Virus record (IMG/VR): IMGVR_UViG_3300032245_001714
Length of the DNA stretch: 64,000 bases
Source of the DNA: a virus
Taxonomy: Duplodnaviria > Heunggongvirae > Uroviricota > Caudoviricetes
Strand: one strand, 5' to 3'
Shown here one piece after another: positions 1 to 57,814 of the stretch (its first letter is position 1; each line of letters starts with the position of its first letter). The position numbers were made by a program, and so were the translations under genes. Below the pieces are notes generated by a model. That model saw nothing but the letters and a program-made list of their open reading frames with translations, had not been told where the DNA came from and ran no database searches.

Positions 1-239
1 GCGTGAAGTGATGGTGAAAGAATCGGATGTCTCTATAGAGCTCCTCCGTTCTCGGGGGTTTGATCTCCTTTAGGTTCCAGCTGAGCATCAGACCTCTGGC
101 TATGGCTTCCTTCTGATCCCTAATGGCTTTCATCCGGGCTTTGCGCTCGAGACCCCTTTGCTCTCTTCCACCTCTGGCCTTGATGGCTTTCTCCAGCCAT
201 CTACTTCTGAGCCATCTGCGCAATGTCATCTTTAGGGCT

Positions 240-458
240 TTAAACATTCTGCTGCGGATTCTGCTGCGGAGAATCGGGAACCGCTGGTCTGGTAAGCAAG
301 CCGATAACATTTAGCAGGATGTTGGCCTTGTCCTCGGGATTAATTCTTGACGAGTCCACCTCTCTGCGGATGGCTAACGTCTGGATATACATTGCTCGGG
401 CTAGTTTTTCCACTTCCTTCTTGTAGCTCTGAAGGAGTGCTTCTGATCTTGGATCCAT
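240..458 (-). CDS. hypothetical protein (72 aa)
   Basis: ORF track entry with protein-like composition. Its ATG follows TAATATATGG and sits 3 nt after the stop of the upstream gene, consistent with a minus-strand operon. Confidence 0.45.
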   Translation of the reverse strand: MDPRSEALLQSYKKEVEKLARAMYIQTLAIRREVDSSRINPEDKANILLNVIGLLTRPAVPDSPQQNPQQNV

Positions 459-461
459 ATA

Positions 462-641
462 TTACTCTTTTTTCTTGTTATTGTCCCTCTTGTCGAAATT
501 GCCGACTCTCTTGTTGACGCACCTCCAGCAAACAACGGACACCGTGTTGATGTCAACGCTGACCTTCTCGGGACAGTGGGTGCAAGCAAGCATCTTATTG
601 CTTCGTGCAAATTTGGGATCTCTTGATTTAACTAATTTCAT
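462..641 (-). CDS. small Cys4 zinc-ribbon protein (59 aa, read by hand)
   Basis: Manual translation: MKLVKSRDPKFARSNKMLACTHCPEKVSVDINTVSVVCWRCVNKRVGNFDKRDNNKKKE. It has a CxxC...CxxC pattern. Its ATG overlaps the stop of 641..961 as TAATG. Confidence 0.4.
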   Translation of the reverse strand: MKLVKSRDPKFARSNKMLACTHCPEKVSVDINTVSVVCWRCVNKRVGNFDKRDNNKKKE

Positions 642-961
642 TACTCTGTGGCTTTAAGTTCTTTTTCCACTTCCCAGTCGGGATTAATCACGAATCCGGG
701 CATGTGTTTCTCTGTGTATCTCTTTAGGAAATCGCAGCGTTCGTACTCCTCCTTCGTGATGAAGAAAGCGGTCATCCGGTTGATGGCTCTTTGAACCGCG
801 GGAATCTCCGCACCCTCTAGGGCTTGCTCACCCCTGGTGGCCAGTAGATCGTAGGCCTCATAACAACCCTCAATGAACTCCTTGCGGGCTCTGAGCCTAA
901 TCATGTGCTGCAACTCATCAGGATCTGGGAAATTGTCGTCGTAGTCTTCTTCGTCGTACAT
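641..961 (-). CDS. hypothetical acidic protein (106 aa)
   Basis: ORF track entry; tightly packed in a minus-strand operon with its neighbours. Confidence 0.5.
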   Translation of the reverse strand: MYDEEDYDDNFPDPDELQHMIRLRARKEFIEGCYEAYDLLATRGEQALEGAEIPAVQRAINRMTAFFITKEEYERCDFLKRYTEKHMPGFVINPDWEVEKELKATE

Positions 962-965
962 AAGA

Positions 966-1190
966 TTATTGGGTTATGATGTTAATAGATGTACAGAGGC
1001 CAAGCTCCTTGACCTCCCTATAAAGGGTGCCTCCCTCCGAGACGATCTCGTACTCGGCTTCGAAAACCGTTGACGTGTCCCTTTTCACCATCTCCCTCAC
1101 TATGGCTCCTCCAGCCATGTAGGTGCGGCGTCTGATCTCCTCGTGTGAGGCCTTGCTGTCAGTTGTGCATGTGAATCTTAGTGCTGCCAT
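966..1190 (-). CDS. hypothetical protein (74 aa)
   Basis: ORF track entry; its start abuts the stop of the upstream small ORF. Confidence 0.45.
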   Translation of the reverse strand: MAALRFTCTTDSKASHEEIRRRTYMAGGAIVREMVKRDTSTVFEAEYEIVSEGGTLYREVKELGLCTSINIITQ

Positions 1191-1192
1191 CT

Positions 1193-1348
1193 CTAAGGGG
1201 TTTTTGGTTTTGGTGCTCTCATGTCTTGAAGCCAGCCTTTAAAGGCTTTCTTCTCTTTGGTGGTCATTTCTCTGTGGAATGATCCGAAGTTCCCGGCCTT
1301 AGCCTCGAACTCCTCGATTAATTGTCTAAGTGATCTTTCTTTGCTCAT
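1193..1348 (-). CDS. small basic protein (51 aa, read by hand)
   Basis: Manual translation: MSKERSLRQLIEEFEAKAGNFGSFHREMTTKEKKAFKGWLQDMRAPKPKTP. Confidence 0.3.
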   Translation of the reverse strand: MSKERSLRQLIEEFEAKAGNFGSFHREMTTKEKKAFKGWLQDMRAPKPKTP

Positions 1349-1413
1349 TGTTCTCTAGTTTACGGAGTTACACCACAAAGGTAATGAATCCCCGTCAGAT
1401 AAAAAAATATTTC

Positions 1414-1635
1414 TCACTTTTTTTTCCCAAACTCTTTTAACTTTTCAGAGATCCACTGGCCTCGTGAACCGTGGATGAAGCTGAAGAGCAGCAGAGCTAT
1501 GATGAAAAACAGTGGGCGACAGAAGTGGGGCCATCCGAAGGGACTAGCAATCTGAGTGAACAGGGCTAAGATCCCGCCGCTAATCCCTAGAGATAGGCCT
1601 AGATTCTTTAGCACTTGGAATGTTGTCTTTTTCAT
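1414..1635 (-). CDS. small membrane protein (73 aa)
   Basis: Two hydrophobic segments; preceded by TATAATAGAT immediately before the ATG. Confidence 0.45.
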   Translation of the reverse strand: MKKTTFQVLKNLGLSLGISGGILALFTQIASPFGWPHFCRPLFFIIALLLFSFIHGSRGQWISEKLKEFGKKK

Positions 1636-1698
1636 ATCTATTATAGATCAAGTCCGCACGTTTGTATCGGGGGCACGGGTGAGTATCTTAATAACATA

Positions 1699-2238
1699 CT
1701 ATACATCTATCCCGGGGAAGGCCCTGAGGATAGCATCCACCATGACCTTCTTCTCCATCCTGTTGGCCTTAGCCGCAGATGCGCTGATCTTGGGGTTAGC
1801 CCTATAGGCAGGGCTGATTAGGTCCTCTAGGATAAACTCCCCTAAGGCCTGATCAAGCTTAATGAGGCTACATCCGGCGTCCCAGTCCTCCATGCCTACT
1901 CCCATCTCCGGTTTAGCCATCTTGTCGTGACGACCCGTAAAGATTTCAGTGGCCAGGTCCTCGCAGGCATCAGGGTCTATGTCTTCATATTCACCGTCGT
2001 AACCGTAGAGGTAGTCCGTGATGAGATCTTCCACCGCTCCGTCCTCTAGATTCAGCATCCAGAGCTCCCTGGCGTTGGGATTCTTAAAGAGCAGTGCCAT
2101 CCACCCGTTCATCCCGAGGGTGGTGAAGAGCTTGTCATTCTCCTCGAGCCCTCGGGCCTTCGTTGGCTCATAGTCCTCTGGGTACTTTGGACCACGGTGA
2201 TACTCGTTGATCTCTCTAAAGGTTTTAATGCGTCTCAT
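1699..2238 (-). CDS. hypothetical acidic protein (179 aa)
   Basis: Long ORF with a D/E-rich, coherent protein-like sequence. Confidence 0.55.
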   Translation of the reverse strand: MRRIKTFREINEYHRGPKYPEDYEPTKARGLEENDKLFTTLGMNGWMALLFKNPNARELWMLNLEDGAVEDLITDYLYGYDGEYEDIDPDACEDLATEIFTGRHDKMAKPEMGVGMEDWDAGCSLIKLDQALGEFILEDLISPAYRANPKISASAAKANRMEKKVMVDAILRAFPGIDV

Positions 2239-2248
2239 AGGCTATCGA

Positions 2249-2368
2249 TTAAAAAAACACCCAGACCAAAAAGCAAATGAGCTTGAGCGTCACATAGAGG
2301 ACTACTCCCATGACACCTCCAATGGCACCGCGGGTCAAAAGCATCAACAACTTGGGTAAGGGCTTCAT
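2249..2368 (-). CDS. small hydrophobic membrane protein (39 aa, read by hand)
   Basis: Manual translation: MKPLPKLLMLLTRGAIGGVMGVVLYVTLKLICFLVWVFF. The ATG is preceded by GATATATAGAGC. Confidence 0.4.
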   Translation of the reverse strand: MKPLPKLLMLLTRGAIGGVMGVVLYVTLKLICFLVWVFF

Positions 2369-2469
2369 GCTCTATATATCGAATCCCAGAGGGGGAGGTT
2401 TCGGGGTGGATCTCCCAGGAGGACCCGCCCACCAAATAGATGATACCCATACTGTTCTGTCTCTTATAG

Positions 2470-2537
2470 CTAGAGAGGAAGAGAAGCATAGGCATAGAGA
2501 TCATAGAGAAGAGAGTAGAGCGAGGCGAGGCGGGACT
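2470..2537 (+). repeat. GA polypurine tract
   Basis: About 65 nt of almost pure purines (tagagaggaagagaagcataggcatagagatcatagagaagagagtagagcgaggcgaggcggga) in a gene-free region. Confidence 0.6.
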
Positions 2538-2607
2538 GCTGGCGGATCTAAGAGGCTCTGAACGGGGCGAAAGCCACCCACGGTTCCGAGACCAGATCGG
2601 GGCGAAT

Positions 2608-2690
2608 CGGGAATCCCGGGGTATCTGGGGGAATTTCTGGAAATTTGTGGGAATTTGTGGGATTTCATGGGAACCGTGGGATCTGGTACC
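2608..2690. repeat. ~10-bp periodic array of degenerate TGGGAATTTG repeats (iteron-like)
   Basis: cgggaatcccgggg / ggggaatttctgg / aaatttgtggg / aatttgtggg / atttcatggg / aaccgtggg / atctgg, with a period of about one helical turn. Confidence 0.5.
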
Positions 2691-2940
2691 CCAGAGGGAT
2701 CTTGGGGGAGAAGCCCGGACCGAGGCGGTGGCCCGAATCGGGGAATCCGAGAAATCAGGGATTTTCACCCTGGGTGGAAGCTCATGCCCACAGAGGGGCT
2801 TCCATAAGGGCCTCTAAAACGCGAACCTGTGGAGGCTATCCCCCGGGACCTCTAAGTCTTGGCCGGGGGAACCTGTGGCATACTACCTTAGTAACATACT
2901 ATGTTTGGGGGACGGGGGTAAGGGTGGACCCTGGGTGGGC

Positions 2941-3351
2941 CTAGACCTTGCTCCAGGTGTAGTCCGCATTCAGGATCACGGAGTACAGGTGTGGCTTGCT
3001 CCACTGGGAGGGTGAGATGAGACTCATAAACCTTGAGCCATCCTCGCTCTGGTACAGATGGTAGCACTCTCCCACTATGGGCTCAAAGGAGCACTTGGCC
3101 GAGTAGACCTCCTGGTTGAGCTCGTACTCCTGCTGCAGCTCCTCTATCTGAAGGATGATCTCCTGGGCTCTTCTCTGTAGGGCTTTGTTCACCTTGTGTG
3201 AGGCTGCTCTGATAAATGGTGTGAGATCTGTGGGTTTGATCTGTGGTGCTCCTATGTGATGTGCGTGTGGCAGTAGGTTTGCCTTTAATGCCACTTTGTC
3301 TTTATGTGATGGTGTGCTCATGTGCTTTATGTATGCCTTATCTATCTTCAT
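2941..3351 (-). CDS. hypothetical protein (136 aa)
   Basis: ORF track entry; an ATACATACTAG-type upstream motif. Confidence 0.5.
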   Translation of the reverse strand: MKIDKAYIKHMSTPSHKDKVALKANLLPHAHHIGAPQIKPTDLTPFIRAASHKVNKALQRRAQEIILQIEELQQEYELNQEVYSAKCSFEPIVGECYHLYQSEDGSRFMSLISPSQWSKPHLYSVILNADYTWSKV

Positions 3352-3391
3352 GCCTATGAGGATGGGTATGGCTAGGGTTATAGCTAGTATG

Positions 3392-3432
3392 TATATTGGG
3401 ATAAGCTATTTGGTGGGCGGGCCCTCGTGGGG
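3392..3432. repeat. partial copy of the GC-rich dispersed repeat
   Basis: tatattgggataagctatttggtgggcgggccctcgtgggga shares the TGGTGGGCGGG..TGGGGA core with the copies at 3954, 4909 and 6083. Confidence 0.4.
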
Positions 3433-3556
3433 AGTAAGGCCCGAAAAGGCCCCAGAGGGATGCAGGTGCCATTTTGGAAACCTGGTCCAGGCGCGTAGGT
3501 GACTAGGACCACAAAAAAGCCTGGAGGTCTCCAGGCTGTATGTGATGTCGGTTCTC

Positions 3557-3949
3557 TTAGTGGTGTTTGGAGGCTATCCGATCCATGGCTTGGGCGAGCT
3601 TATAGTCTCTCTCTGTGATCACATCCCCTGCGTCATGGGTTCTGAGCCAGCACTGGACGGTCTTGAAGATGTTGGTCCACTTGGGGTGGTGATTCATTCG
3701 GTTGCACACCTCTGCGACTTCGTTCATAAATGACATAGCAACGTTGAAGTCTTTGAAATCGTATCTCTTATAGAGCGAGTTGTCTCTCTCTGTCCATCCT
3801 GCAGGAGCTTGGACTGGCATCTCCGTTTCTTTAACAGGCACACATCTAGGCACTCTCCTGCCTCCCTTCATCTTGGTGCCAATCTGTTTGTATCCAGACC
3901 AGCATGGGCCTTTGGCCTCGTCTATGTGGTAGGGTTGTATGTGTTTCAT
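3557..3949 (-). CDS. pterin-4a-carbinolamine dehydratase (PCD/DCoH) domain protein with N-terminal extension
   Basis: The C-terminal half, ...FMNEVAEVCNRMNHHPKWTNIFKTVQCWLRTHDAGDVITERDYKLAQAMD, matches the PCD signature (HHPEW..., TH, G-[IL]-[ST]-x-[RK]-D, LA). Starts MKHIQPY with the upstream motif GATATATAGAGC. Confidence 0.65.
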   Translation of the reverse strand: MKHIQPYHIDEAKGPCWSGYKQIGTKMKGGRRVPRCVPVKETEMPVQAPAGWTERDNSLYKRYDFKDFNVAMSFMNEVAEVCNRMNHHPKWTNIFKTVQCWLRTHDAGDVITERDYKLAQAMDRIASKHH

Positions 3950-3961
3950 GCTCTATATATC
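3950..3961 (-). promoter_or_regulatory. GATATATAGAGC start-proximal motif, minus strand, inside the GC-rich block
   Basis: Reverse complement: gatatatagagc followed by ATG (MKHIQPY). Confidence 0.4.
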
Positions 3962-3998
3962 ATTGGTTCTGGTGGGCGGGTCTCCCTGGGGATTCGAT
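3954..3998. repeat. GC-rich dispersed intergenic repeat, copy 1
   Basis: tatatatcattggttctggtgggcgggtctccctggggattcga. Confidence 0.55.
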
Positions 3999-4036
3999 CC
4001 CAAATGACTCCACATATGCTCTGTGATATATAGCTT

Positions 4037-4258
4037 ATGAACATAGATTTTCCAAAGGCCAAATTCTTGTCTAGGTTTGGCAACATCAAGGCCAGCAAGG
4101 AGGAATCCGACCGCATGTTTAGGCAGTTTCTCTGGGAGGAGGAGGAGAGGGAGCGAATGATGTTCACGAGGGAGGCGGAGCAAGCCGGTGGCGCTGGCTT
4201 AACTCAAGACTACATGGAATATGATTATATGATAGATGCAGCAAATTACGTAGACTAA
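4037..4258 (+). CDS. hypothetical protein (73 aa)
   Basis: The ATG is preceded by TGATATATAGCTT. Confidence 0.5.
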   Translation: MNIDFPKAKFLSRFGNIKASKEESDRMFRQFLWEEEERERMMFTREAEQAGGAGLTQDYMEYDYMIDAANYVD

Positions 4259-4274
4259 AAACAAAAAACATAAA

Positions 4275-4832
4275 ATGGGAATAACAACAAGAGAATTTGG
4301 TCCTTATGCTAAAGGCAGCAGGCTAACCACAGCCGAGATGGATGAGAACTTCAACTACCTATTAGAGTTGAATACAACCCTCTATGCTGGAACTTTTTTC
4401 GATACCACCACACAGCCTACCGGTGGCACGGGATCAGCAAACCAAGTGGCAATCAATTCAACACAGGCCAATAATGGTTTCTCACTAGCGAACAATACAA
4501 TAACGGTTACTAATGCTGGAACCTATTGTTTCATTGCCAACATGCAACTTTCATTTACTGGTGGATCCTCAAATCTTAATGTAACTGTATGGTATACTGT
4601 AGACGATGTAATTGTTCCTAACTCAGCATTTACATTCACCACATCATCAGCCCAAAATGACCAGACGCTAGCATCCATAACAGATACAATATCGTTAACA
4701 GCTGGCCAAACCCTAAAATTTTACTGGTGGTCTGGATCTGCAGGAATGAAACTTTTAGCAACCCCTGCAGCCTCCAATCCAACAAGACCCCTATCACCAT
4801 CTGTAAATTTGACTATATTTAACGTGGGGTAA
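4275..4832 (+). CDS. hypothetical Thr/Ser/Asn-rich, beta-rich protein (185 aa), possibly structural or fibre-like
   Basis: Composition resembles phage fibre or adhesin domains; no motif recognised. Confidence 0.5.
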   Translation: MGITTREFGPYAKGSRLTTAEMDENFNYLLELNTTLYAGTFFDTTTQPTGGTGSANQVAINSTQANNGFSLANNTITVTNAGTYCFIANMQLSFTGGSSNLNVTVWYTVDDVIVPNSAFTFTTSSAQNDQTLASITDTISLTAGQTLKFYWWSGSAGMKLLATPAASNPTRPLSPSVNLTIFNVG

Positions 4833-4908
4833 TAAATTAAATCAGGAGGAATAAAAATGTGATACCCACAAAAAAACCTGGGGGTAAGTCCAGGCCTCTC
4901 TATATTCT

Positions 4909-4953
4909 TTTCATGCTCTATATATCATTGGATGTGGTGGGCGGGTCTCCTGG
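4909..4953. repeat. GC-rich dispersed intergenic repeat, copy 2
   Basis: tatatatcattggatgtggtgggcgggtctcctggggaattga. Confidence 0.55.
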
Positions 4954-5045
4954 GGAATTGAGTCCGGGAAGTCACCAGGTGGATGGGCTGGCCTCTCTAG
5001 AGAATCCCACAAAAAATCCCGGTTAGTTGAAGAATATATAAGGGC

Positions 5046-6041
5046 ATGAAACATCTCCTTAATTTTTCGGGTTTCCTCTTTGAGGACAACGGCTCTTCGG
5101 CCGATCAGACACCTTGCACCTACTATCAGGACAAGCAGGGTGACAGTGGTTATAAAAACTTCTGGGCGGAATACAGTAACATGTCACCCGAGGAACAAAA
5201 GACCAAAATGAAGGGGATCACAGCTGGAGTCTTGGATTTGCTTGAGGTCATCAAGGACGAGTACACCAAGTGGTACAGCAATCCTGCCACCATAAAGAAG
5301 TTCACGCAGGAGGAGGATAAGGTTAGAATGAAACTGCTCTCTGAGTACCTGCCTAAAATAACCTGCAAGCTTCACACCAAGCCAGATCCTAATGCCTCTA
5401 AGATGAAGCAGGCATCATGGGGTTGGTTTTCCGCAAAAGCTCCATATATTATAAATGTGGCTCTTTACAACTTCTTCAACGGCAAGTCCACAGGAAACAA
5501 GAGCATAAAGGACACTATCAAACACGAAATGGCCCACGCTATTGACGCCTACTTCTCCGAGAACGGGGTGAGAGCCTATGACGCCACCCACCCTCCAATC
5601 ACAACGCCGGGCGAGTATGAAAGAATCTACCTGATGAATGACAAGGATCAATTTGCAAGACTTAATATTCTCAGAGGCATCATCAAAGCCGGTCCGACTG
5701 ACTCTGGCAAACAGCTGCTGGTTAAGTTTTTAGATGAAGCGAAAAAGGGCAAGATCTCCTCAGAGAGCTTTGATTTTAAAGGCGGTGTTAGTCCCAAAGG
5801 TGACCTTTATCTTTTAAGAATGATCCCCAAGAGGATGGAGGGAGTGAAAGGCAAGGTGCCTTTAGATGTGGCCAAGAAGGTCTACTCCAGCATGATGAAT
5901 AAAGGAGCCATTATGGTGGGAGGCAAAGAAAACTTCAATCTAGAGCAGCTCTTCTCAAATTTTGGTAGGATCATCAACAACGAGATTGTGATCAATATGA
6001 GCGATATAGCCCAATTGAACTACTCATCCAAAAACATGTAA
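5046..6041 (+). CDS. putative zinc metallopeptidase (HExxH) carrying the N-terminal tag (331 aa)
   Basis: HEMAH in IKHEMAHAIDAYF; N-terminus MKHLLNFSGFLFE; ATATATAAGGGC lies immediately upstream of the ATG. Confidence 0.55.
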   Translation: MKHLLNFSGFLFEDNGSSADQTPCTYYQDKQGDSGYKNFWAEYSNMSPEEQKTKMKGITAGVLDLLEVIKDEYTKWYSNPATIKKFTQEEDKVRMKLLSEYLPKITCKLHTKPDPNASKMKQASWGWFSAKAPYIINVALYNFFNGKSTGNKSIKDTIKHEMAHAIDAYFSENGVRAYDATHPPITTPGEYERIYLMNDKDQFARLNILRGIIKAGPTDSGKQLLVKFLDEAKKGKISSESFDFKGGVSPKGDLYLLRMIPKRMEGVKGKVPLDVAKKVYSSMMNKGAIMVGGKENFNLEQLFSNFGRIINNEIVINMSDIAQLNYSSKNM

Positions 6042-6082
6042 AGACTGTCTCAGAACCCCAGATTTATCGTTTCTCGTGTTCT

Positions 6083-6123
6083 GTGTATCATTGGCCGTGG
6101 GTGGGCTGGGCTCCTGAGAATTT
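6083..6123. repeat. GC-rich dispersed intergenic repeat, copy 3 (degenerate)
   Basis: gtgtatcattggccgtgggtgggctgggctcctgagaattt. Confidence 0.45.
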
Positions 6124-6128
6124 AGCGG

Positions 6129-6141
6129 GATATATAGGTCA
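6129..6141 (+). promoter_or_regulatory. GATATATAGG start-proximal motif (representative copy)
   Basis: gatatataggtca followed by ATG. Confidence 0.4.
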
Positions 6142-7392
6142 ATGAAACGTTTACTCACATATCAACTATTTAAAAATCGGTTCGGTCTAAGTCGAGAGCA
6201 GACCAAATGGCTAAACTCTGTTGCTCCTAACCGGTGGAGTTTAAATCCTCAAACCGGTCTCATTGACGTGGACGGAAGTTTTGATTGCAGGAGACAGCTA
6301 CTAACGGATTTCAAGGGATTGCGTTTCGGAGATGTGAGTGGTGATTTCAATTTTCAAGGCAACCAGATCACAAGTCTGGACGGAGCACCTGAGACTGTTG
6401 GTGGGGATTTCCGCTGTCAAGATAATCAGATCACAAGTCTGAAAGGAGCACCGGTGACCGTTAAAGGTAATTTCCTCTGTAGCCATAATCAGATCGCAAG
6501 TCTGGACGGAGCACCGGAGAGTGTTGGTAAGAGTTTCATCTGTAACACTAATAAACTCACAAGTCTGAAAGGAGCACCGCAGACTGTTGGTGGAGAGTTC
6601 GCTTGTTGCTTTAATGAGATCACAAGTCTGGAGGGAGCACCACAGAGTGTTACTTATTTCAATTGTGGCTACAATAAAAAACTCACAAGTCTGAAAGGAG
6701 CACCGGAGAGTGTTGATGGGGATTTCAATTGTGAGCGCTGTGGACTCACAAATCTGGACGGAGCACCCGAGACTGTTGGTGGGGATTTCAAATGTAACCA
6801 TAATCAGCTCACAAGTCTGAAAGGAGCACCAGGGACTGTTAAAGGTGATTTCAAATGTAACCATAATCAGCTCACAAGTCTGGAGGGAGCACCACAGACT
6901 GTTGGTGGGGATAATCCCGACCAGAGTGGGGATTTCGAATGTAACCATAATCAGCTCACAAGTCTAAAGGGAGCACCAGGGACTGTTAAAGGTGATTTCT
7001 TATGTAACGATAATCCACTCACAAGTCTGGAGGGCTCACCAGAAAAAGTTGGAAGATTTTATGCCGGTGAACTGGGAGATTATAATGATCCATTAAATTG
7101 GCCTGAAGGCTGGAACAAAGAGGATAAAGGGTTTACCAAAACTCTCGCATCCAAACTAAAAGAAATTGATGCTCTTGGATCTGATGCAGATAAGAGTAAA
7201 TTAATCTCTATGTTACTGTCACTGACAGAGCCTAATTTACTAGACTATCTGATATCTAATAACCTTTCCCCATCAGATAAGTTCACGATCTATGGAGCAA
7301 TTAAAGCCAATATTCCTGATGTTTGGAATAAGATTAAAGACAAAGTGGATCCTGACGGTGCCACTTCCGATTTGATGGACCTTGGGTTTTAA
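6142..7392 (+). CDS. LRR-like 21-aa repeat protein, family member 1 (about 11 repeats, conserved C-terminal domain ending DLMDLGF)
   Basis: Repeats follow GDFxCxxNxLTSLxGAPxTVx; N-terminus MKRLLTYQLF; GATATATAGG sits 3 nt before the ATG. Confidence 0.8.
   Translation: MKRLLTYQLFKNRFGLSREQTKWLNSVAPNRWSLNPQTGLIDVDGSFDCRRQLLTDFKGLRFGDVSGDFNFQGNQITSLDGAPETVGGDFRCQDNQITSLKGAPVTVKGNFLCSHNQIASLDGAPESVGKSFICNTNKLTSLKGAPQTVGGEFACCFNEITSLEGAPQSVTYFNCGYNKKLTSLKGAPESVDGDFNCERCGLTNLDGAPETVGGDFKCNHNQLTSLKGAPGTVKGDFKCNHNQLTSLEGAPQTVGGDNPDQSGDFECNHNQLTSLKGAPGTVKGDFLCNDNPLTSLEGSPEKVGRFYAGELGDYNDPLNWPEGWNKEDKGFTKTLASKLKEIDALGSDADKSKLISMLLSLTEPNLLDYLISNNLSPSDKFTIYGAIKANIPDVWNKIKDKVDPDGATSDLMDLGF
6340..7040 (+). 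repeat. tandem 63-bp DNA repeats inside the LRR-like gene
   Basis: Near-identical units such as aatcagatcacaagtctgaaaggagcacc...gttggtggggatttc recur about 11 times. Confidence 0.7.
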
Positions 7393-7395
7393 TGC

Positions 7396-7408
7396 GATAT
7401 ATAGCAAT
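7396..7408 (+). promoter_or_regulatory. GATATATAG start-proximal motif
   Basis: taatgcgatatatagcaat followed by ATG; the upstream gene's stop TAA lies inside it. Confidence 0.4.
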
Positions 7409-8695
7409 ATGAAAAATCTTCTACCTTTCTCCCTATTCGAATCCAAGTCCATCACACCCGAGGATTGGGCTGGCAACTGGCAGGATCTGCCTGAGTGGAA
7501 ACTCCTACAACTAATGGGATTTGAAATCCTTGACACCAACCGCAATGGCACGGTCACTATCGGTAGTTCATACTCTGGGGTCAGACCTAGACTCACCTCT
7601 GCTGGCTATGTGAGAACCGCGGATCAGGGTTATGTGTATGATGATAAGGGGAAAGATCCAATGCCTAGAATGTTAGGCTATGTCATTATGAGATTTGCCA
7701 AGAATGGTATTCCTGGAATTCCCACCAAAGAACTAGATGCCATTATGAAGGCCAATCCTGGACTGGTGAAATACCTGCTGGATTTACCTAAGATTAGGGA
7801 GGAGGTTTTAAGCAGGACTGGGATCACTGACACCACTGGGGATATTTATAAAAAATATGGACTGAGTCCATCCGTAGTTAAATGGTTGGATAAATCCACA
7901 AAAAAAACCTGGAAGATCAATGAAACTACCGGAGAGATCGACGTTGAGGGTAGTTTTATCAATAATACTGATAACAAGCTCGGATTTAGAGGGGTTAAGT
8001 TTGGAGTGGTTGATAGGAATTTTGACATTGGAAATTTAGGACTCACCTCCCTAGAGGGAGCTCCTCGTGAGGTTGGAGGGAATTTCTATTGCGTGGGAAA
8101 TAAAGGGCTCACATCACTCGAATGGGCACCGCAGAAAGTGGGAGGAAATTTCGGTGTCAATAGCAACGGTCTCACCTCGCTCAAGTGGTCACCCCTGGTG
8201 GTTAAAGGTGATTTTTCCTGCCCTAGAAATGAGCTTAAAACATTAGAGGGAGCCCCAAAGAAAGTGATAGGCCGTTTTAATTGCTCTGATAATCCTCTGG
8301 TCTCTCTTTTAGGAGCGCCCGAAAGCCTCGGAGAATTTTCGTTATCAACCTGGAGCACTCCCCCTGATATGAGACTATTGGATTTTCGTAATGGCTGGGA
8401 CAAAAAAGGTGATGTTGAATTTTTAAAAACCATTCTTGCAAAGTTAAAAGAGATTGACGATCTCCCTAATGACAGAACAAAGCCTGTTGATAAATCAAAA
8501 TTAAAATTAATGCTTCTCTCGCTGACTGGTGCAGATAGTGTTGCCGATTTTCTTTTATCTGGCAAGATTCCAGTAGGAGACAAATTCGAAATCTACGGAA
8601 TGGTTAAAGACTCGCTCCCAGAGGTATGGGATAAAGTTAAGGACAAAGTAGATCCAGACGGAGCCACTTCGGATTTGCTTGACCTTGGGTTTTAA
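7409..8695 (+). CDS. LRR-like repeat protein, family member 2
   Basis: Start revised to MKNLLPFSLFES; the track ORF ran in-frame through the upstream gene. LRR-like repeats (GAPREVGGNFYCVGNKGLTSLEWAP...) and a C-terminus ...DPDGATSDLLDLGF. Confidence 0.75.
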   Translation: MKNLLPFSLFESKSITPEDWAGNWQDLPEWKLLQLMGFEILDTNRNGTVTIGSSYSGVRPRLTSAGYVRTADQGYVYDDKGKDPMPRMLGYVIMRFAKNGIPGIPTKELDAIMKANPGLVKYLLDLPKIREEVLSRTGITDTTGDIYKKYGLSPSVVKWLDKSTKKTWKINETTGEIDVEGSFINNTDNKLGFRGVKFGVVDRNFDIGNLGLTSLEGAPREVGGNFYCVGNKGLTSLEWAPQKVGGNFGVNSNGLTSLKWSPLVVKGDFSCPRNELKTLEGAPKKVIGRFNCSDNPLVSLLGAPESLGEFSLSTWSTPPDMRLLDFRNGWDKKGDVEFLKTILAKLKEIDDLPNDRTKPVDKSKLKLMLLSLTGADSVADFLLSGKIPVGDKFEIYGMVKDSLPEVWDKVKDKVDPDGATSDLLDLGF

Positions 8696-8698
8696 TGC

Positions 8699-8711
8699 GA
8701 TATATAGGACA
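8699..8711 (+). promoter_or_regulatory. GATATATAGG start-proximal motif
   Basis: gcgatatataggaca followed by ATG. Confidence 0.4.
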
Positions 8712-9620
8712 ATGAAGCATGTAAAATTATTCGAGGATTTTAATATTCCTACATCTCTTACTAAACAACAGATCGATTGGCTGGATAGGTGTACAAAAAA
8801 CTCTAAAGGTTGGAGTCTCAATCCATCAACGGGTCTTGTTGATGTTATGGGGAATTTCAATTGCATTCTTCAAAATCTGGAGGATTTTAAGGGGGTAAAA
8901 TTTGGACGGGTTGAAGGGAATTTCATGTGTCAAAAAAATGAGCTCAAAATTCTGACTGGAGCGCCTCTGAGTGTTGGTGGGAATTTCGATTGTAGCTCTA
9001 ATCCTCTAGAAAGTCTAGATGGATCACCAGAGACTGTTGTGGGAGATTTCAATTGCGATTGGTGTAAACCGCTTAAAAATCTGAAAGGAGCACCTCTGAG
9101 TGTTGGTGGAGATTTCTCCTGTAGCTCTAATAATCTAGAAAGTCTAGATGGAGCACCAGAGACTGTTGGTGGGAATTTCGATTGTCGCTTTAATGATCTT
9201 AAAAATCTGGAAGGAGCACCTCTGACTGTTGGCAAACTATTCAATTGTTCTCATAATATAAAACTTACCTCCTTTGCAGGAGCACCTGAAAGTGTAGGCA
9301 ACTTCGTGGGGGATGAAGGTTTATCCGGGTTATTAAATTGGTCTAAAGGCTGGGACAAAAAAGGTGATGCTGAATTTGCCAAAACCCTCCTTGCAAAGTT
9401 AAAAGAAGTGGACGATTGGAGGAATTTTCAACCTAAATTAAAAGGAATGCTTCTGTCACTGTTAGACGTTGACTGTATACTATCGAATAACTTTTCCCCT
9501 TCGGACAAGTTTGAGATCTATGGAATTATTAAAGAGACCCTGCCGGATGTTTGGTCTAAGGTTAAGGATAAATTAGATCCAGATGGAGCCACTTCCGATT
9601 TGATGGACCTTGGGTTTTAA
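8712..9620 (+). CDS. LRR-like repeat protein, family member 3
   Basis: Start revised to MKHVKLFEDF; repeats GAPLSVGGNFDCSSNPLESLDGSP...; C-terminus ...DPDGATSDLMDLGF. GATATATAGG lies upstream. Confidence 0.75.
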   Translation: MKHVKLFEDFNIPTSLTKQQIDWLDRCTKNSKGWSLNPSTGLVDVMGNFNCILQNLEDFKGVKFGRVEGNFMCQKNELKILTGAPLSVGGNFDCSSNPLESLDGSPETVVGDFNCDWCKPLKNLKGAPLSVGGDFSCSSNNLESLDGAPETVGGNFDCRFNDLKNLEGAPLTVGKLFNCSHNIKLTSFAGAPESVGNFVGDEGLSGLLNWSKGWDKKGDAEFAKTLLAKLKEVDDWRNFQPKLKGMLLSLLDVDCILSNNFSPSDKFEIYGIIKETLPDVWSKVKDKLDPDGATSDLMDLGF

Positions 9621-13953: not shown

Positions 13954-14055
13954 GGTCAGGTGGTGTAATGGCAACATGGGGTTCGACCCCCCAATCAACC
14001 CAGTAGTGGGACGATACAGAAAGGCAAGATACAGGTTCGAATCCTGTCCTGACCG
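13954..14055 (+). tRNA. tRNA-like gene, atypical (~102 nt)
   Basis: Acceptor GGTCAGG/CCTGACC, D arm GTGT-AATGGCA-ACAT and T arm ACAGG-TTCGAAT-CCTGT, but about 51 nt lie between the D and T arms. One hairpin there, GGGG-TTCGACC-CCCC, could carry a CGA anticodon, which would make it Ser-like. Confidence 0.5.
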
Positions 14056-40812: not shown

Positions 40813-41907
40813 TTATCCTGCTTTAAGTAAAAAGTTATTAGAAATGGCTTTAAAAGATATTGATTTATCTTTATTCCTAATAACCAATCCTTCTCTTTCT
40901 GTCTGTTCGTTCAACCTAGATTTACCCTCTGCTTGAATTAAAACCTCCTCTATGGTCGAAGGAAGTTTATAATCGTAATAAATCACCGGAACGAGCTCTA
41001 ATGGCTTATCGTCAACATTTATCTTTTCTAGTATTCTAATCATATCATCAAGTCCCAAATACTCCCGGGTGTCTATGTTGAACATGTTGAATATTTTAAC
41101 CGTTTGACCTTTAATCTTATATGGATTTCCCTGTATCCCTTCGCCGATGAGTTCTCCCTGAATCGCGTAGTTACCTTCAAGAGTTCCCAATTTCTCTTCG
41201 ATGAAAAGTTCTCTGGCAACTTTCCAAAACGTATTTTCCTCTGTTTCTAATAGCTCTAAATTTCTTGAACAAACTCCAAACACACCATTATTAAAATAAT
41301 ATGTTGCAGAGCTTCCGTCAAGTTTTTCTGTTACGTAATAGTGCTTATCACGCATGCTATCGAATTCTTTAGTCATGTTCTGGATTCTCTCCTCGTCGGT
41401 CTTTCTGATAAATCCTGGGAAATAGCCTTTTACCTTTCCTGCTAATGAAGCTGGGATCGGAGGTTCATATTTTAATATCCCAAGATAGTCAGTAAGATCC
41501 ATCCCCTCCTCTATAATCATTGCATCATCATAAGGACCTAATTGTAACTGATTTCCCCAAGGCTGCTCTGAAATCCCTACTACCATTTCTTCAAACTCTT
41601 TACTGTTTAAAACTGAAAGAGGAAGACAAAGTCCCTGAGAGATTTGTCCTCGGAGTTTTATTGTCTTTAATCTAAATCCCTCTTTATCTCCCATTTTTTT
41701 AAACGAAGATTTTCTTAGAAATTCAAACTCTTCCCTCACAGGTAAGAAAGAATCTATCTCGAAATAGACACAAAGGTCTCCTTCGTTAAACTCCCCTTTC
41801 TTTGAGACAACCTTCCATGAATTCACGGTTACTATTTCTATTGCGTCCGCTCCCCCGATAGGAAGAATTTTTCCAATTCTCTGTATCGAAGCTAATTTTC
41901 TTTCCAT
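40813..41907 (-). CDS. ATP-dependent RNA ligase, DRB0094/Rnl5-like
   Basis: KxDG adenylation motif TEKLDGSS; N-terminus RKLASIQRIGKILPIGGADAIEIVTVNSWKVVSKKGEFNEGDLCVYFEIDSFLP, typical of this ligase family. Confidence 0.55.
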   Translation of the reverse strand: MERKLASIQRIGKILPIGGADAIEIVTVNSWKVVSKKGEFNEGDLCVYFEIDSFLPVREEFEFLRKSSFKKMGDKEGFRLKTIKLRGQISQGLCLPLSVLNSKEFEEMVVGISEQPWGNQLQLGPYDDAMIIEEGMDLTDYLGILKYEPPIPASLAGKVKGYFPGFIRKTDEERIQNMTKEFDSMRDKHYYVTEKLDGSSATYYFNNGVFGVCSRNLELLETEENTFWKVARELFIEEKLGTLEGNYAIQGELIGEGIQGNPYKIKGQTVKIFNMFNIDTREYLGLDDMIRILEKINVDDKPLELVPVIYYDYKLPSTIEEVLIQAEGKSRLNEQTEREGLVIRNKDKSISFKAISNNFLLKAG

Positions 41908-56893: not shown

Positions 56894-57016
56894 AATATCA
56901 CATAAGTAAGTATGTTACCCAGCTTTATAAAGAATCTAATTACTTTTATACTTTTGAGTTGCAAATATATGAACATACTTCGAATAAAAAAAAATAATAT
57001 CGGATAATATTTTTAG

Positions 57017-57183: not shown

Positions 57184-57290
57184 TAGCCAGGACAGGATTC
57201 GAACCTGTGAGCCCTCGTGTATGGGTATCATACATACCACACCCAAGGACTTTATGTATGCTCAGCGTTAAGCCACTCCGCCACCTGACT
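57184..57290 (-). tRNA. tRNA-like gene E2, atypical (107 nt)
   Basis: Reverse complement: AGTCAGG-TG-GCGGAGTGGCTTAACGC (Leu/Ser-type D arm), a 47-nt internally paired insert, T arm ACAGG-TTCGAAT-CCTGT, acceptor CCTGGCT, discriminator A. Confidence 0.5.
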
Positions 57291-57721: not shown

Positions 57722-57814
57722 TAGTCAGGACAGGATTCGAACCTGTGACCTTTGTCTTTTGGTTCCGCCGTAAGCGGATTACTCACCAACACGCTACCAT
57801 TGCGCCACCTGACT
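57722..57814 (-). tRNA. tRNA-like gene E4, atypical (93 nt)
   Basis: Reverse complement: AGTCAGG-TG-GCGC-AATGGTA-GCGT; stem TTGGT/ACCAA encloses 21 nt containing a TCCGC-TTACG-GCGGA hairpin; T arm ACAGG-TTCGAAT-CCTGT; acceptor CCTGACT; discriminator A. Confidence 0.5.

What the first reader, a model, noticed from the sequence alone, without database searches (positions are those of the whole stretch)
2380..2940. 560-nt gene-free GC-rich region with a GA polypurine tract and a helical-period repeat array
No convincing ORF covers 2380-2940; the overlapping track ORFs have Arg/Pro/Gly-rich junk composition. The region contains a ~65-nt GA-only tract that could form a triplex or H-DNA. It also contains about six copies of TGGGAATTTG-like words spaced ~10 bp apart, so successive copies fall on one face of the helix. 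The motifs TAACATACTAT at 1690 and 2890 flank the neighbouring genes. The candidates are a replication origin with iterons, a packaging site, or a structured ncRNA.
Basis: seen in the sequence. Interest (0 to 1): 0.55.

Follow-up and report, generated by a model that had tools for sequence, protein, structure and literature searches.

The report
Conserved non-coding control locus in megaphage
This 570-base gene-free stretch of an uncultivated freshwater giant phage is a real non-coding DNA element kept in at least three phage lineages, built around a strongly bent array of 10-base repeats, and it is a plausible but unproven replication origin or control region.

Summary
Window 2369-2940 has no conserved ORF. 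It contains a 10-bp tandem array that gives the strongest helical A/T phasing in the 64 kb. TAACATACTAT occurs exactly at 1692 and 2892. The 'GA-only' tract is wrong: it is 81% purine and the longest pure run is 15 nt, so H-DNA is not supported.

The window comes from a 105,858-bp metagenomic scaffold whose relatives sit on 348-435-kb IMG/VR contigs, so the source is a megaphage. The same gene-free region (572-773 nt) lies between a DUF2452 gene and an acidic 179-203-aa gene in three lineages. It is as conserved at the DNA level as the flanking coding DNA.

Shared parts:
- an inverted copy of the DUF2452 upstream module pointing into the region
- a purine/G-rich stretch
- the phased array (TGGNNWWWWS, five or six units)
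- enriched GGTGG(A) words
- an invariant 19-mer holding a unique palindrome
- a recurring hairpin motif

The array is inverted in the window lineage, and this segment is swapped between otherwise identical strains. That argues for a DNA-level role rather than an RNA one. There is no Rfam match and no covariation.

My best reading is a cis-acting protein-binding locus, most likely a T4-type origin (confidence about 0.35). The main rival is a convergent-promoter regulatory region. Function is untested.

The parts
2249..2368 (-). 39-aa hydrophobic small ORF (MKPLPKLL...VWVFF). This is the first gene to the left of the non-coding region. It is absent in the L017-type and L026 lineages, where the 179-aa-family gene starts directly at the motif.
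   Evidence: Translation. A 39-codon in-frame match at 56% identity in the 75%-identity relative L005.
2372..2380 (-). GATATATAG start-proximal, promoter-like motif, 3 nt before the ATG of the small ORF. It marks the left edge of the element.
   Evidence: 13 exact copies in the window against 0.90 expected. 15 sites lie 2-6 nt before an ATG. It is 100% conserved in all relatives.
2381..2473 (+). Module A. GC-rich box, CCCGCCCACCA (2424-2434), AAATAGATG, TGTTCTGTCTC, TTATAGCTAG (2464-2473). It is an inverted copy of the module upstream of DUF2452 and points into the non-coding region.
   Evidence: 60-nt inverted repeat 2392-2451 / 3394-3453 at 73%. CCCGCCCACCA occurs 4 times against 0.28 expected. 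The same arrangement is found in L017 (21-nt arms, 100% identical) and in L026. It is 86% conserved in L005, where the neighbouring genes are 66%.
2468..2535 (+). Purine-rich tract (81% purine) made of decayed ~30-nt units (TATAGNTAGAG plus a purine run). It includes a pseudo-start CATAGGCATaGAGAT (2487-2501) and the invariant GAGGCGAGGCG (2522-2532).
   Evidence: Purine fraction 0.65-0.73 and GC skew +0.29 to +0.46 at the same place in all three lineages.
2622..2686 (.). Array of 5-6 helically phased 10-bp direct repeats (consensus TGGNNWWWWS). It is an intrinsic-bend signal and a local low-GC patch. Its core, ~2624-2669, is inverted relative to the other lineages.
   Evidence: TRF. Periodicity rank 1 in the window and in L026. 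GC minima. Orientation flip. Allelic replacement between L007 and L008.
2736..2797 (.). Most conserved block. The 19-mer CACCCTGGGTGGAAGCTCA (2766-2784) is identical in all lineages and contains the palindrome CACCC-T-GGGTG.
   Evidence: Alignment. The palindrome occurs once per locus and nowhere else in the 64 kb, apart from a one-mismatch copy at 2927-2937. It retrieved the 348,582-bp IMG/VR contig.
2836..2877 (.). Hypervariable segment. In the window it is a GC hairpin; it is 52% identical in L006.
   Evidence: Three independent contigs end at 2878-2883.
2879..2903 (-). A second copy lies at 1679-1703, just after the 179-aa gene.
   Evidence: The same motif follows genes in L017-L021 (three copies each) and in three IMG/VR contigs of 348-435 kb.
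2941..3351 (-). DUF2452 (C1orf50-family) gene. It is the conserved right-hand neighbour of the element.
   Evidence: Pfam PF10504, E=1.2e-13. Homologues at 58-96% identity. Synteny.
3394..3465 (-). Module B, the DUF2452 upstream module. It is the partner of module A, with CCCGCCCACCA at 3411-3421.

Best explanation
Window 2369-2940 is a conserved, non-coding, cis-acting DNA locus of an uncultivated freshwater megaphage. I think it works at the level of DNA and bound proteins, most likely as a replication origin of the kind described for phage T4 (a promoter plus evenly spaced direct repeats or an unwinding element).

Proposed working:
1. A promoter-like module (2381-2473), which is an inverted copy of the DUF2452 gene's own upstream module, fires rightward into the region.
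2. The first ~100-150 nt transcribed are purine- and G-rich on the RNA-like strand. That composition favours a persistent RNA-DNA hybrid.
3. Downstream lies an array of five or six 10-bp repeats, each putting TGG and an A/T tract on the same face of the helix. The array is a static bend and a local low-GC patch between GC-rich flanks. There the duplex would open, or a small protein would stack along one face.
4. GGTGG(A) words and one invariant palindrome provide further protein sites.

Shown: the region is non-coding, it is conserved in three lineages, the phasing and bend signal are real, the array tolerates inversion, and the palindrome is unique.

Inferred: transcription from the module, any protein binding, and the replication function itself.
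For: - Non-coding.
- Syntenic in three lineages, between DUF2452 and the 179-203-aa gene.
- DNA identity between lineages is 51-59% of alignment columns (z 11-19). That compares with 59-68% for the DUF2452 gene and 51-54% for the 179-aa gene.
- The array gives the top ~10-bp A/T periodicity of the whole window and of L026, and falls in the top 0.02-0.24% in L019 and L017. Unit sequences drift but TGG plus the A/T phasing is kept.
- The array is inverted in the window, L006 and L007 compared with L008, L017 and L026, with colinear flanks. Flipping it raises the alignment score from 56 to 76. This fits a DNA-level, orientation-independent role.
- The array is the lowest-GC 40-nt patch of the region in L026, ties for lowest in L019, is second lowest in the window (0.38 against a region mean of 0.56), and lies within 0.02 of the minimum in L017.
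- GGTGG/GTGGA words are enriched: 7 against 2.0 expected in the window (p=0.004), and 13-15 against 1.4-1.9 in L017 (0 of 500 shuffles reached it).
- The 19-mer is invariant and the palindrome is unique.
- A promoter-like module faces inward in all lineages, followed by a stretch that is 65-73% purine with GC skew +0.29 to +0.46.
- Repeat copy number varies between strains: 46-nt units x2-4 and (GGTGGA)n.
- The local minimum of cumulative GC skew lies at window ~2.2-2.4 kb, about 1.6 kb from the point where transcription diverges.
- The phage has T4-like Dda helicase and RNA ligases.
Against: - The region is GC-rich (57%), whereas origins are usually AT-rich. The array's GC (0.25-0.38) is not below the genome average.
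- There is no DnaA-box enrichment.
- No initiator has been identified. The DUF2452 model (pLDDT 73.7) has no significant structural match and no recognisable DNA-binding fold.
- The neighbours have no informative families.
- The skew minimum follows gene orientation, and the next maximum is only ~21 kb away. It is therefore not replication evidence.
- Copies of the GC-rich module also sit in ordinary divergent promoter regions at 3970, 4935 and 6099. The left third of the element may simply be promoter DNA.
- No read-depth, transcript or binding data exist.
Confidence: 0.35

Rival explanations
1. A transcriptional control region. Two copies of one regulated promoter/operator module face each other across the DUF2452 gene and its long 3' region. 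The bent array, the palindrome and the GGTGG words are operator or architectural sites for a phage regulator. Convergent transcription (antisense or interference) would set expression of DUF2452 and read-through into the leftward small genes.
For: - Modules A and B are inverted copies in all three lineages.
- The TATAGATAG-type motif occurs only at this cassette, once upstream of DUF2452 and 2-7 times in the non-coding DNA.
- Related modules sit between divergent GATATATAG promoters at 3950-4036 and 4912-5045.
- The hairpin motif lies at gene 3' ends, sometimes just before an intrinsic terminator.
- The central segment is swapped as alleles between otherwise identical strains, as happens with immunity or specificity regions.
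Against: - 570-770 nt with a unique palindrome and the genome's strongest phased bend is far more than a promoter/operator needs.
- No regulator gene (HTH or RHH) was recognised nearby.
- Promoter activity of module A is inferred only from its similarity to module B.
- The start-proximal promoter PWM does not score the TATAGATAG units.
Confidence: 0.3
2. A ~400-nt non-coding RNA transcribed rightward from module A (purine-rich), or the pyrimidine-rich leftward read-through RNA, acts as a regulatory or structural RNA.
For: - A promoter-like module points into the region.
- Strand asymmetry is conserved just downstream of it.
- The minus-strand fold z-score is -2.31.
- GTTCCGTCTC and GAGGCGAGGC are invariant and are complementary with G-U pairs only on the plus strand.
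- The hairpin at 2879-2903 uses G-U pairs on the minus strand.
Against: - No Rfam family matches in any lineage, even at permissive E-values.
- RNAalifold covariation terms are -0.16, +0.96 and -1.44 kcal/mol, and the consensus folds are weak.
- The plus-strand z-score is only -1.06.
- The array is inverted between lineages, which would replace ~47 nt of any RNA with its complement.
- The best-conserved block is a DNA palindrome.
Confidence: 0.12
3. A packaging or termini site (pac, cos or a terminal-repeat boundary), or another unique DNA-handling site such as a partition centromere. The bent DNA and repeats would be recognised by terminase or a ParR-like protein.
For: - All seven short contigs of the window lineage that enter the region stop inside it. 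Three of them, from both sides and from different samples, stop at 2878-2883.
- The site is unique, and bent DNA and repeats are typical of pac sites and of parC-type centromeres (my own knowledge).
Against: - Contig ends are scattered (2474, 2607, 2727, 2797, 2878-2883) and coincide with strain-variable segments. Population heterogeneity therefore explains them.
- Three long contigs and all the L017-type and L026 contigs run straight through.
- No terminase or partition gene was recognised next to the locus.
Confidence: 0.08
4. Evolutionary debris. On this reading the region is a decayed, rightward-transcribed gene, an inverted partial duplicate of DUF2452 with its promoter, or a cassette bounded by ~110-nt inverted repeats (2381-2501 / 3344-3465) that once moved. 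It would have no present function beyond the promoter at its left edge.
For: - Module A continues into CATAGGCATaGAGAT, which matches the DUF2452 start CATAGGCATGAAGAT at the same 52-nt spacing from CCCGCCCACCA.
- A related 195-bp GC-rich intergenic element (4838-5032) is present in the source contig but absent from 99.96%-identical strains.
Against: - Beyond the module there is no DNA or protein similarity to DUF2452 or to any window ORF.
- The region keeps its position, its architecture and an invariant 19-mer across lineages whose flanking proteins are only 51-58% identical. Overall it is as conserved as the coding DNA.
- The phased array is maintained although its unit sequences drift.
Confidence: 0.08

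Closest known systems
Phage T4 oriE
   Same: A cluster of evenly spaced short direct repeats (12 nt in T4, 10 nt here) lies in non-coding DNA next to small early genes. The cluster is conserved in syntenic regions of related phages. It is associated with a promoter and sits near a switch of transcription direction and nucleotide skew (PMC3016281). The phage carries T4-like Dda helicase and RNA ligases.
   Different: Even in T4 the role of the repeats in origin firing is unproven. There is no sequence similarity to T4, and no repEA/repEB-like genes were recognised. The DNA here is GC-rich, and it carries an inverted copy of a neighbouring gene's promoter module. No replication data exist for this phage.
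Phage T4 oriF/oriG (R-loop origins)
   Same: The architecture is a promoter followed by a downstream region where the transcript could stay hybridised and the duplex could open. Here a purine- and G-rich stretch with GC skew +0.29 to +0.46 follows a promoter-like module in all three lineages. After it comes a local low-GC patch.
   Different: T4's minimal origins are ~100 bp with an A+T-rich unwinding element and a MotA-dependent promoter. Here the element is 570-770 bp, the 'unwinding' patch is only 25-38% GC against a 36% genome, and promoter activity is inferred.
Iteron origins of plasmids and lambdoid phages (R6K gamma, P1, F, lambda ori)
   Same: They share tandem direct repeats, intrinsic bending, repeat-related sequences in the promoter of the adjacent gene, and strain-specific repeat variants (from my own knowledge of these systems).
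   Different: Classical iterons are 17-22 bp spaced about two helical turns apart, and they are bound by a known Rep or O protein. Many of these origins also carry DnaA boxes. Here the units are 10 bp, there is no DnaA-box enrichment, and the neighbouring DUF2452 protein shows no DNA-binding fold.
Helically phased arrays bound on one face (plasmid R1 parC/ParR 11-bp repeats; OmpR/PhoB tandem 10-11-bp sites)
   Same: Five or six head-to-tail units occur at one helical turn, which is the geometry used for cooperative binding along one face and for DNA wrapping (my own knowledge; the geometry is shown).
   Different: No ParR/ParM, winged-helix or RHH protein was recognised nearby. Only TGG and the A/T phasing are conserved within the units, which fits a structural bend at least as well as a sequence-specific site.

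Membership tests
Iteron-type replication origin | Tandem, evenly spaced direct repeats in non-coding DNA | tested here: met
   Period 10, 4.5-6 copies. The same array is present in L008, the L017-type loci and L026.
Iteron-type replication origin | A cognate initiator protein that binds the repeats | not testable with these tools
   No candidate was recognised. DUF2452 has no significant fold match, and the neighbours have no informative families.
Iteron-type replication origin | An adjacent A+T-rich unwinding element | tested here: inconclusive
   The array is a local GC minimum (0.25-0.38) inside a region of 49-56% GC, but it is not below the genome average of ~36%.
Iteron-type replication origin | DnaA boxes (present in many, not all) | tested here: not met
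   Matches to TTATCCACA at <=2 mismatches number 0, 1 and 3 in the three lineages, against 1.1-1.6 expected.
Iteron-type replication origin | Initiation of replication maps here, or the fragment replicates autonomously | not testable with these tools
   This needs read-depth profiles or experiments. The local cumulative GC-skew minimum at ~2.2-2.4 kb is confounded by gene orientation.
T4 oriF/oriG-type R-loop origin | A promoter directing transcription into the element | tested here: inconclusive
   Module A is a paralogue of the DUF2452 upstream module and points inward in all three lineages. No transcript data exist, and the sigma-70-type scan found no promoter-like site in or near the region.
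T4 oriF/oriG-type R-loop origin | A downstream region prone to a persistent RNA-DNA hybrid | tested here: inconclusive
   A conserved stretch of 65-73% purine with GC skew +0.29 to +0.46 lies just downstream of the module. R-loop formation itself cannot be tested.
Structured non-coding RNA | A match to a described RNA family | tested here: not met
   No Rfam hit at gathering scores. The only hits are E>1 chance hits in the window, and there are none in L017, L019 or L026.
Structured non-coding RNA | Base pairs supported by compensatory changes; a fold more stable than shuffles | tested here: not met
   Covariation terms are -0.16, +0.96 and -1.44 kcal/mol. Fold z-scores are -1.06 (+) and -2.31 (-). 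Only three effective lineages were available, so power is low.
H-DNA / triplex-forming tract | A long uninterrupted homopurine-homopyrimidine run | tested here: not met
   81% purine over 68 nt, with a longest pure run of 15 nt. Mirror symmetry was not examined.
Protein-coding gene or recent pseudogene | A conserved reading frame or detectable homology to a protein | tested here: not met
   Stops occur in all frames in L017, L019 and L026, and tblastx hits cross stops. The 177-aa ORF has no database homologue. There is no similarity to any window ORF beyond the module.
Site-specific invertible switch (Hin/Gin/fim type) | Inverted repeats at the inversion boundaries, and both orientations present in one population | tested here: inconclusive
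   The array core ~2624-2669 is flipped between lineages. The exact 11-nt inverted repeat (2577-2587 / 2670-2680) does not coincide with the boundaries. L007 and L008 also differ in sequence around the array, which points to allelic replacement. No recombinase search was made.
pac/cos packaging site | Physical DNA ends at the site; adjacency to terminase genes | tested here: inconclusive
   Seven contig ends fall inside the region, three of them at 2878-2883. They are scattered and coincide with variable segments, and long contigs pass through. Terminase genes were not searched for systematically.

The most novel reading that the evidence does not exclude
The DUF2452 gene and its 0.6-0.8-kb non-coding tail form one self-contained cassette, bounded by inverted copies of a single promoter/operator module. 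The central bent array is exchanged or flipped between co-occurring strains as a specificity determinant. This would be a previously undescribed kind of megaphage control or replication module, in which a C1orf50-family protein (function unknown even in humans) works with an adjacent repeat-laden DNA site.
Probability: 0.12. Interest if true: 0.7.

Novelty: new member of a known kind. Interest (0 to 1): 0.45.

Why it matters
Megaphages are known almost only from metagenomes. One recent paper states that all but phage G have evaded cultivation (PMC12484599, abstract seen). To my knowledge their origins, control regions and other cis-acting DNA are essentially unmapped.

This locus is a concrete, alignable candidate. 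It is unique, conserved across at least three lineages, and structurally distinctive. It could be tested directly with existing metagenomic reads, using coverage maxima, read-start pile-ups and inversion-spanning read pairs.

It also links a C1orf50/DUF2452-family gene of unknown function to a fixed DNA partner. If the locus turns out to be only a promoter/terminator region, the result is still useful. It defines this phage group's start-proximal GATATATAG motif and its recurring 3' hairpin motif.

Tried and rejected
1. DNA search of window 1-6200 against GenBank phages found no match. A tblastn search with DUF2452 against the same set also found no match.
2. The search for related loci in IMG/VR with the 179-aa and DUF2452 proteins found no confirmed relatives. 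An exact 26-mer from module A gave nothing in IMG/VR and only the already-known JGI contig in the metagenomes.
3. The spurious 177-aa ORF was used as a protein query to fish for related contigs. It gave no hits, and one capped search was wasted.
4. I tested whether the region is a decayed inverted paralogue of DUF2452. Similarity stops after the module and pseudo-start, and there is no protein-level signal. Rejected as a full explanation.
5. I considered whether CCCGCCCACCA is a tRNA 3' end or an attP remnant. There are four copies in 2.5 kb (2424-4945), the sequence is not kept in L017 or L026 (CCGGCCTCCA), and there is no tRNA call here. Rejected.
6. The TATAGATAG units do not reach the PWM threshold built from 15 start-proximal GATATATAG sites. 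They cannot be called the same promoter.
7. There is no DnaA-box enrichment.
8. A genome-contig scan with the 18-mer gave 16 hits in unrelated, mostly high-GC genomes. About 17 are expected by chance, and none resembles the locus.
9. The DUF2452 structure model (pLDDT 73.7) searched against the PDB gave no match at E<=0.001. A PDB sequence search gave none. The literature covers only human C1orf50, of unknown function.
10. Pfam, PHROG and NCBIfam-type annotation of the neighbours was uninformative.
11. The L023 tail and the L011 and L024 loci carry DUF2452 in other contexts without the element.
Full report
**What is at the coordinates.** I read window 1500-3600 on both strands.

- The flanking genes are all on the minus strand.
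  - To the left is a 179-aa acidic protein (1699-2238).
  - Next comes a 39-aa hydrophobic ORF (2249-2368), which the ORF list missed at its 40-aa cut-off.
  - To the right is a DUF2452-family gene (2941-3351; Pfam E=1.2e-13).
- Directly before the small ORF's ATG lies GATATATAG (2372-2380).
  - This 9-mer occurs 13 times in the window against 0.9 expected.
  - In 15 cases it, or its A/G variants, sits 2-6 nt before an ATG.
  - I treat it as this phage's start-proximal, promoter-like motif. That is an inference.
- The gene-free stretch is therefore 2369-2940.
  - It is 57% GC with G>C on the plus strand.
  - Most of the window is 33-38% GC, but the first 6 kb as a whole is 43-55%.

**Check of each observed feature.**

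- The tandem array is real.
  - TRF gives 2629-2673, period 10, 4.5 copies, 80% matches.
  - A parameter-free test measured Fourier power of AA/TT/AT at 10-10.5 bp in 60-nt windows.
  - That test puts the array first of 63,940 positions in the window (14.87 against a 99th percentile of 9.21).
- The 'GA-only' tract is not GA-only.
  - Window 2468-2535 is 81% purine, and the longest pure run is 15 nt.
  - The triplex idea therefore loses its basis.
- TAACATACTAT is exact at 1692 and 2892.
- The overlapping ORFs are not genes.
  - Gene callers picked different frames and strands in near-identical relatives.
  - The 177-aa ORF has no homologue among 5.8 billion proteins.
  - In more distant lineages every frame has stops.

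**Source and relatives.**

- The 179-aa protein is encoded on ENA scaffold KRAE22-1_SAMEA4981813_METAG-scaffold_43 (105,858 bp).
  - The window is positions 21,141-85,140 of that scaffold.
- Close relatives at 93-95% DNA identity were found on short Logan and JGI contigs (L004, L006-L008). One relative at 76% identity is L005.
- DUF2452 homologues led to a second lineage at 58% protein identity (L017-L022).
- The invariant 19-mer then retrieved a third lineage, L026. It lies at 96.9-107.8 kb of a 348,582-bp IMG/VR contig.
- The hairpin motif also occurs in IMG/VR contigs of 434,509 and 430,120 bp.
- The phage has a Dda-like helicase, two T4-type RNA ligases and tRNA genes.
- I conclude that the window is part of a megaphage genome from freshwater metagenomes.

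**Conservation.**

- In all three lineages a gene-free region lies between the DUF2452 stop and the start of the 179-203-aa gene.
  - It is 572 nt in the window, 592 nt in L026 and 683-773 nt in the L017-type loci.
- Global alignments give the following.
  - The non-coding region shows 51-59% identical columns (z=11-19 over shuffles).
  - The DUF2452 coding DNA shows 59-68%.
  - The 179-aa gene shows 51-54%.
- Among close relatives the region is 94-98% identical, while the 179-aa gene is 86-87%.
- The shared blocks are these.
  - The module core, CCAAATAGAT...GTTC(C/T)GTCTC(C/T)TATAG(A/C)TAG.
  - GAGGCGAGG.
  - ATCGGGG...GAAATC.
  - An invariant 19-mer, CACCCTGGGTGGAAGCTCA, whose palindrome occurs once per locus and nowhere else in the window apart from a one-mismatch copy at 2927.
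  - A hairpin, CATAGTAT-N9-ATACTATG.
- tblastx matches between lineages cross stop codons in several frames. The conservation is therefore at the nucleotide level.

**The array.**

- Its units drift, but TGG plus an A/T run recurs every 10 bp.
  - Window: TGGGGGAATTTC, TGGAAATTTG, TGGGAATTTG, TGGGATTTCA and further units.
  - L017: TGGGGTTTTC, TGGTGTATAG, TGGTAAAAAG, TGGATTTTTG, TGGGACTAGG.
  - L026 (reverse complement): TGGAAATTTC, TGGTGTAAAG, TGGTAAATTG, TGGGGATTTG.
- The periodicity signal ranks first in L026 and falls in the top 0.02-0.24% in L019 and L017.
- Phased A-tracts of this kind give intrinsically curved DNA. That is established knowledge, not measured here.
- The array is also a low-GC 40-nt patch of each region.
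  - It is the lowest in L026 and ties for lowest in L019.
  - It is second lowest in the window and within 0.02 of the minimum in L017.
- The TGG words lie on the window's plus strand in the window, L006 and L007. They lie on the opposite strand in L008, the L017-type loci and L026, while both flanks stay colinear.
  - Flipping 2624-2669 raises the window-L026 alignment score from 56 to 76.
- L007 and L008 come from one sequencing project.
  - They are 100% identical over about 900 nt of flank but only 58-84% identical over window ~2555-2705.
  - The central segment therefore exists as exchangeable alleles.
- A function that survives inversion and sequence drift, yet keeps phase and position, points to DNA geometry or protein binding rather than to an RNA.

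**The left third.**

- Window 2381-2501 is an inverted copy of the region upstream of DUF2452 (3465-3344).
  - The inverted repeat is 60 nt at 73%.
  - Both copies contain CCCGCCCACCAAATAG.
  - Both have the same 52-nt spacing to CATAGGCATaGAGAT (copy A) or CATAGGCATGAAGAT (the DUF2452 start).
- The same relationship holds in L017, with 21-nt arms at 100% identity (TGTTCCGTCTCCTATAGATAG), and in L026.
- In L017-type loci the CTCCTATAGATAGAG unit occurs in several places.
  - It occurs once before DUF2452.
  - It occurs 2-4 times just after DUF2452, inside 46-nt tandem repeats whose number differs between strains.
  - It occurs three times on the other strand at the far end. All non-coding copies point inward.
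  - It occurs nowhere else in 16 kb.
- The window's purine tract is the decayed counterpart of those far-end units.
- Just downstream of module A, all lineages are 65-73% purine with GC skew +0.29 to +0.46.
- Shorter relatives of the GC-rich box sit between divergent GATATATAG motifs at 3950-4036, 4912-5045 and 6072-6141.
- One such 195-bp element (4838-5032) is missing from strains that are otherwise 99.96% identical.

**Other enriched words.**

- GGTGG and GTGGA are over-represented.
  - The window has 7 against 2.0 expected (p=0.004).
  - L017 has 13-15 against 1.4-1.9, and none of 500 shuffles reached it.
- They are not DnaA boxes.

**RNA tests.**

- No Rfam family matches in any lineage.
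- Single-sequence folds give z=-1.06 (plus strand) and -2.31 (minus strand).
- RNAalifold on the conserved blocks gives weak consensus folds, with covariation terms of -0.16, +0.96 and -1.44 kcal/mol.
- The one neat helix, GUUCCGUCUC with GAGGCGAGGC, joins two invariant blocks, so it cannot be tested.
- With only three effective lineages the power is low. Even so, nothing favours a structured RNA.

**The TAACATACTAT motif.**

- It is the 3' arm and loop of a small hairpin. On the gene strand it reads AACATAGTATG-kT-nyTAAs-ATACT.
- The hairpin follows DUF2452 and the 179-aa gene in the window.
- It follows three genes in each L017-type locus, and it follows genes in three IMG/VR megaphage contigs. 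There it sometimes lies just before a canonical hairpin-plus-T-run terminator.
- It is a genome-wide punctuation element of this phage group, perhaps a processing, pause or antitermination site. It is not specific to the finding.

**Assembly behaviour.**

- All seven short contigs of the window lineage that reach the region end inside it, at 2474, 2607, 2727, 2797, 2878, 2881 and 2883.
- These ends coincide with the variable segments, 2555-2705 and 2836-2877 (the latter 52% identical in L006).
- Longer contigs pass through.
- Strain heterogeneity is therefore the simplest cause. Physical ends cannot be excluded without the reads.

**Neighbouring proteins.**

- DUF2452 is the C1orf50 family, whose function is unknown.
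- An AlphaFold model built from 12 sequences has pLDDT 73.7 and shows a long helix plus a small sheet. It has no significant PDB match.
- The 179-aa protein and the small neighbours have no informative family.
- A DnaB/RecA-like ATPase lies about 16 kb further along the leftward gene block.

**Interpretation.** The data establish a conserved, unique, non-coding cis element that acts at the DNA level. Its function is not established.

- I rank a T4-type origin first, at about 0.35.
  - The combination of features matches what is described for T4 oriE and oriF/G (PMC3016281).
  - Those features are a promoter-like module firing into a G/purine-rich stretch and an evenly spaced direct-repeat cluster that is bent and locally easy to melt.
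  - They also include extra repeated words, strain-variable repeat numbers, and a position near a transcription and skew switch.
  - The cumulative GC-skew minimum within the 72 kb available lies at window ~2.2-2.4 kb.
- Several points count against an origin.
  - The DNA is GC-rich.
  - There are no DnaA boxes and no recognisable initiator.
  - The skew pattern simply tracks gene orientation.
- A convergent-promoter regulatory region is nearly as likely, at about 0.30.
- An ncRNA (0.12), a packaging or partition site (0.08) and debris (0.08) trail behind.

**Novelty and interest.**

- The element is absent from Rfam and from GenBank phages, and it is not annotated anywhere I could search.
- It belongs to a familiar kind, the repeat-laden cis-acting intergenic region.
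- It is a good, directly testable origin or control candidate for a group of phages in which, to my knowledge, no cis-acting sites have been mapped.
- Without read-level or experimental data its interest is moderate.

Noticed in passing
window 57722-57814(-), 57184-57290(-), 13954-14055(+); tRNA-like copies near 57016 and 57507: These tRNA genes are 93-107 nt long and carry insertions in the anticodon arm. One has 32 nt where the Rfam model has 11, and another has 43 against 18. ARAGORN calls only one of them, with an odd anticodon. The phage also encodes RnlA- and RnlB-type RNA ligases at 40813-41907(-) and 49783-50922(-), which may be relevant to tRNA cutting and rejoining.
   Followed up: partly
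window 4838-5032: A 195-bp GC-rich intergenic element is present in the source contig but absent from two strains that are 99.96% identical over window 1-4837 (L002, L003). It carries an intrinsic terminator, a 4-codon mini-ORF (MKRI*), a GATATATAG motif and a copy of the GGTGGGCGGG module. It looks like a duplicated promoter region or a small mobile insert.
   Followed up: partly
window-wide, e.g. 4025, 6129, 7396, 8699, 16029, 23664(-), 50995: GATATATA(G/A) lies 2-6 nt before the ATG of many genes (13 exact 9-mers against 0.9 expected), often right after a T-run. No conserved -35-like element lies upstream. This implies leaderless or near-leaderless mRNAs, or an unusual promoter type.
   Followed up: partly
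window 6142-9620(+); also L010 1708-2889 and L026 ~7446-8018: This is a family of paralogous genes built from 63-nt (21-aa) tandem repeats (GAPETVGGDFNC-type). Copy numbers vary, and in L010 one copy is inserted between the pterin dehydratase and DUF2452 genes.
   Followed up: no
window 1-6000, and L001 8000-12000: A GC-rich island (43-55% GC, including coding genes) sits in a genome that is otherwise 33-38% GC. It fades gradually to the right. The cause is unknown.
   Followed up: no
window 1679-1703 and 2879-2903; L017 8492, 9690, 10067; L028-L032: The hairpin motif AACATAGTATG-N-TAAs-ATACT recurs just after genes in several megaphage contigs (348-435 kb), sometimes immediately before a canonical terminator. 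It may be an RNA processing, pausing or antitermination signal.
   Followed up: partly
window 3557-3949(-) and 2941-3351(-): The phage carries a pterin-4a-carbinolamine dehydratase gene next to a C1orf50/DUF2452-family gene. No DUF2452 homologue was found in 50,697 GenBank phage records.
   Followed up: partly
L017 8985-9010, L018, L019, L020 (same place): A (GGTGGA)n microsatellite varies between strains, with about 2 to 5 units. It lies between module A and the start of the 203-aa gene.
   Followed up: no
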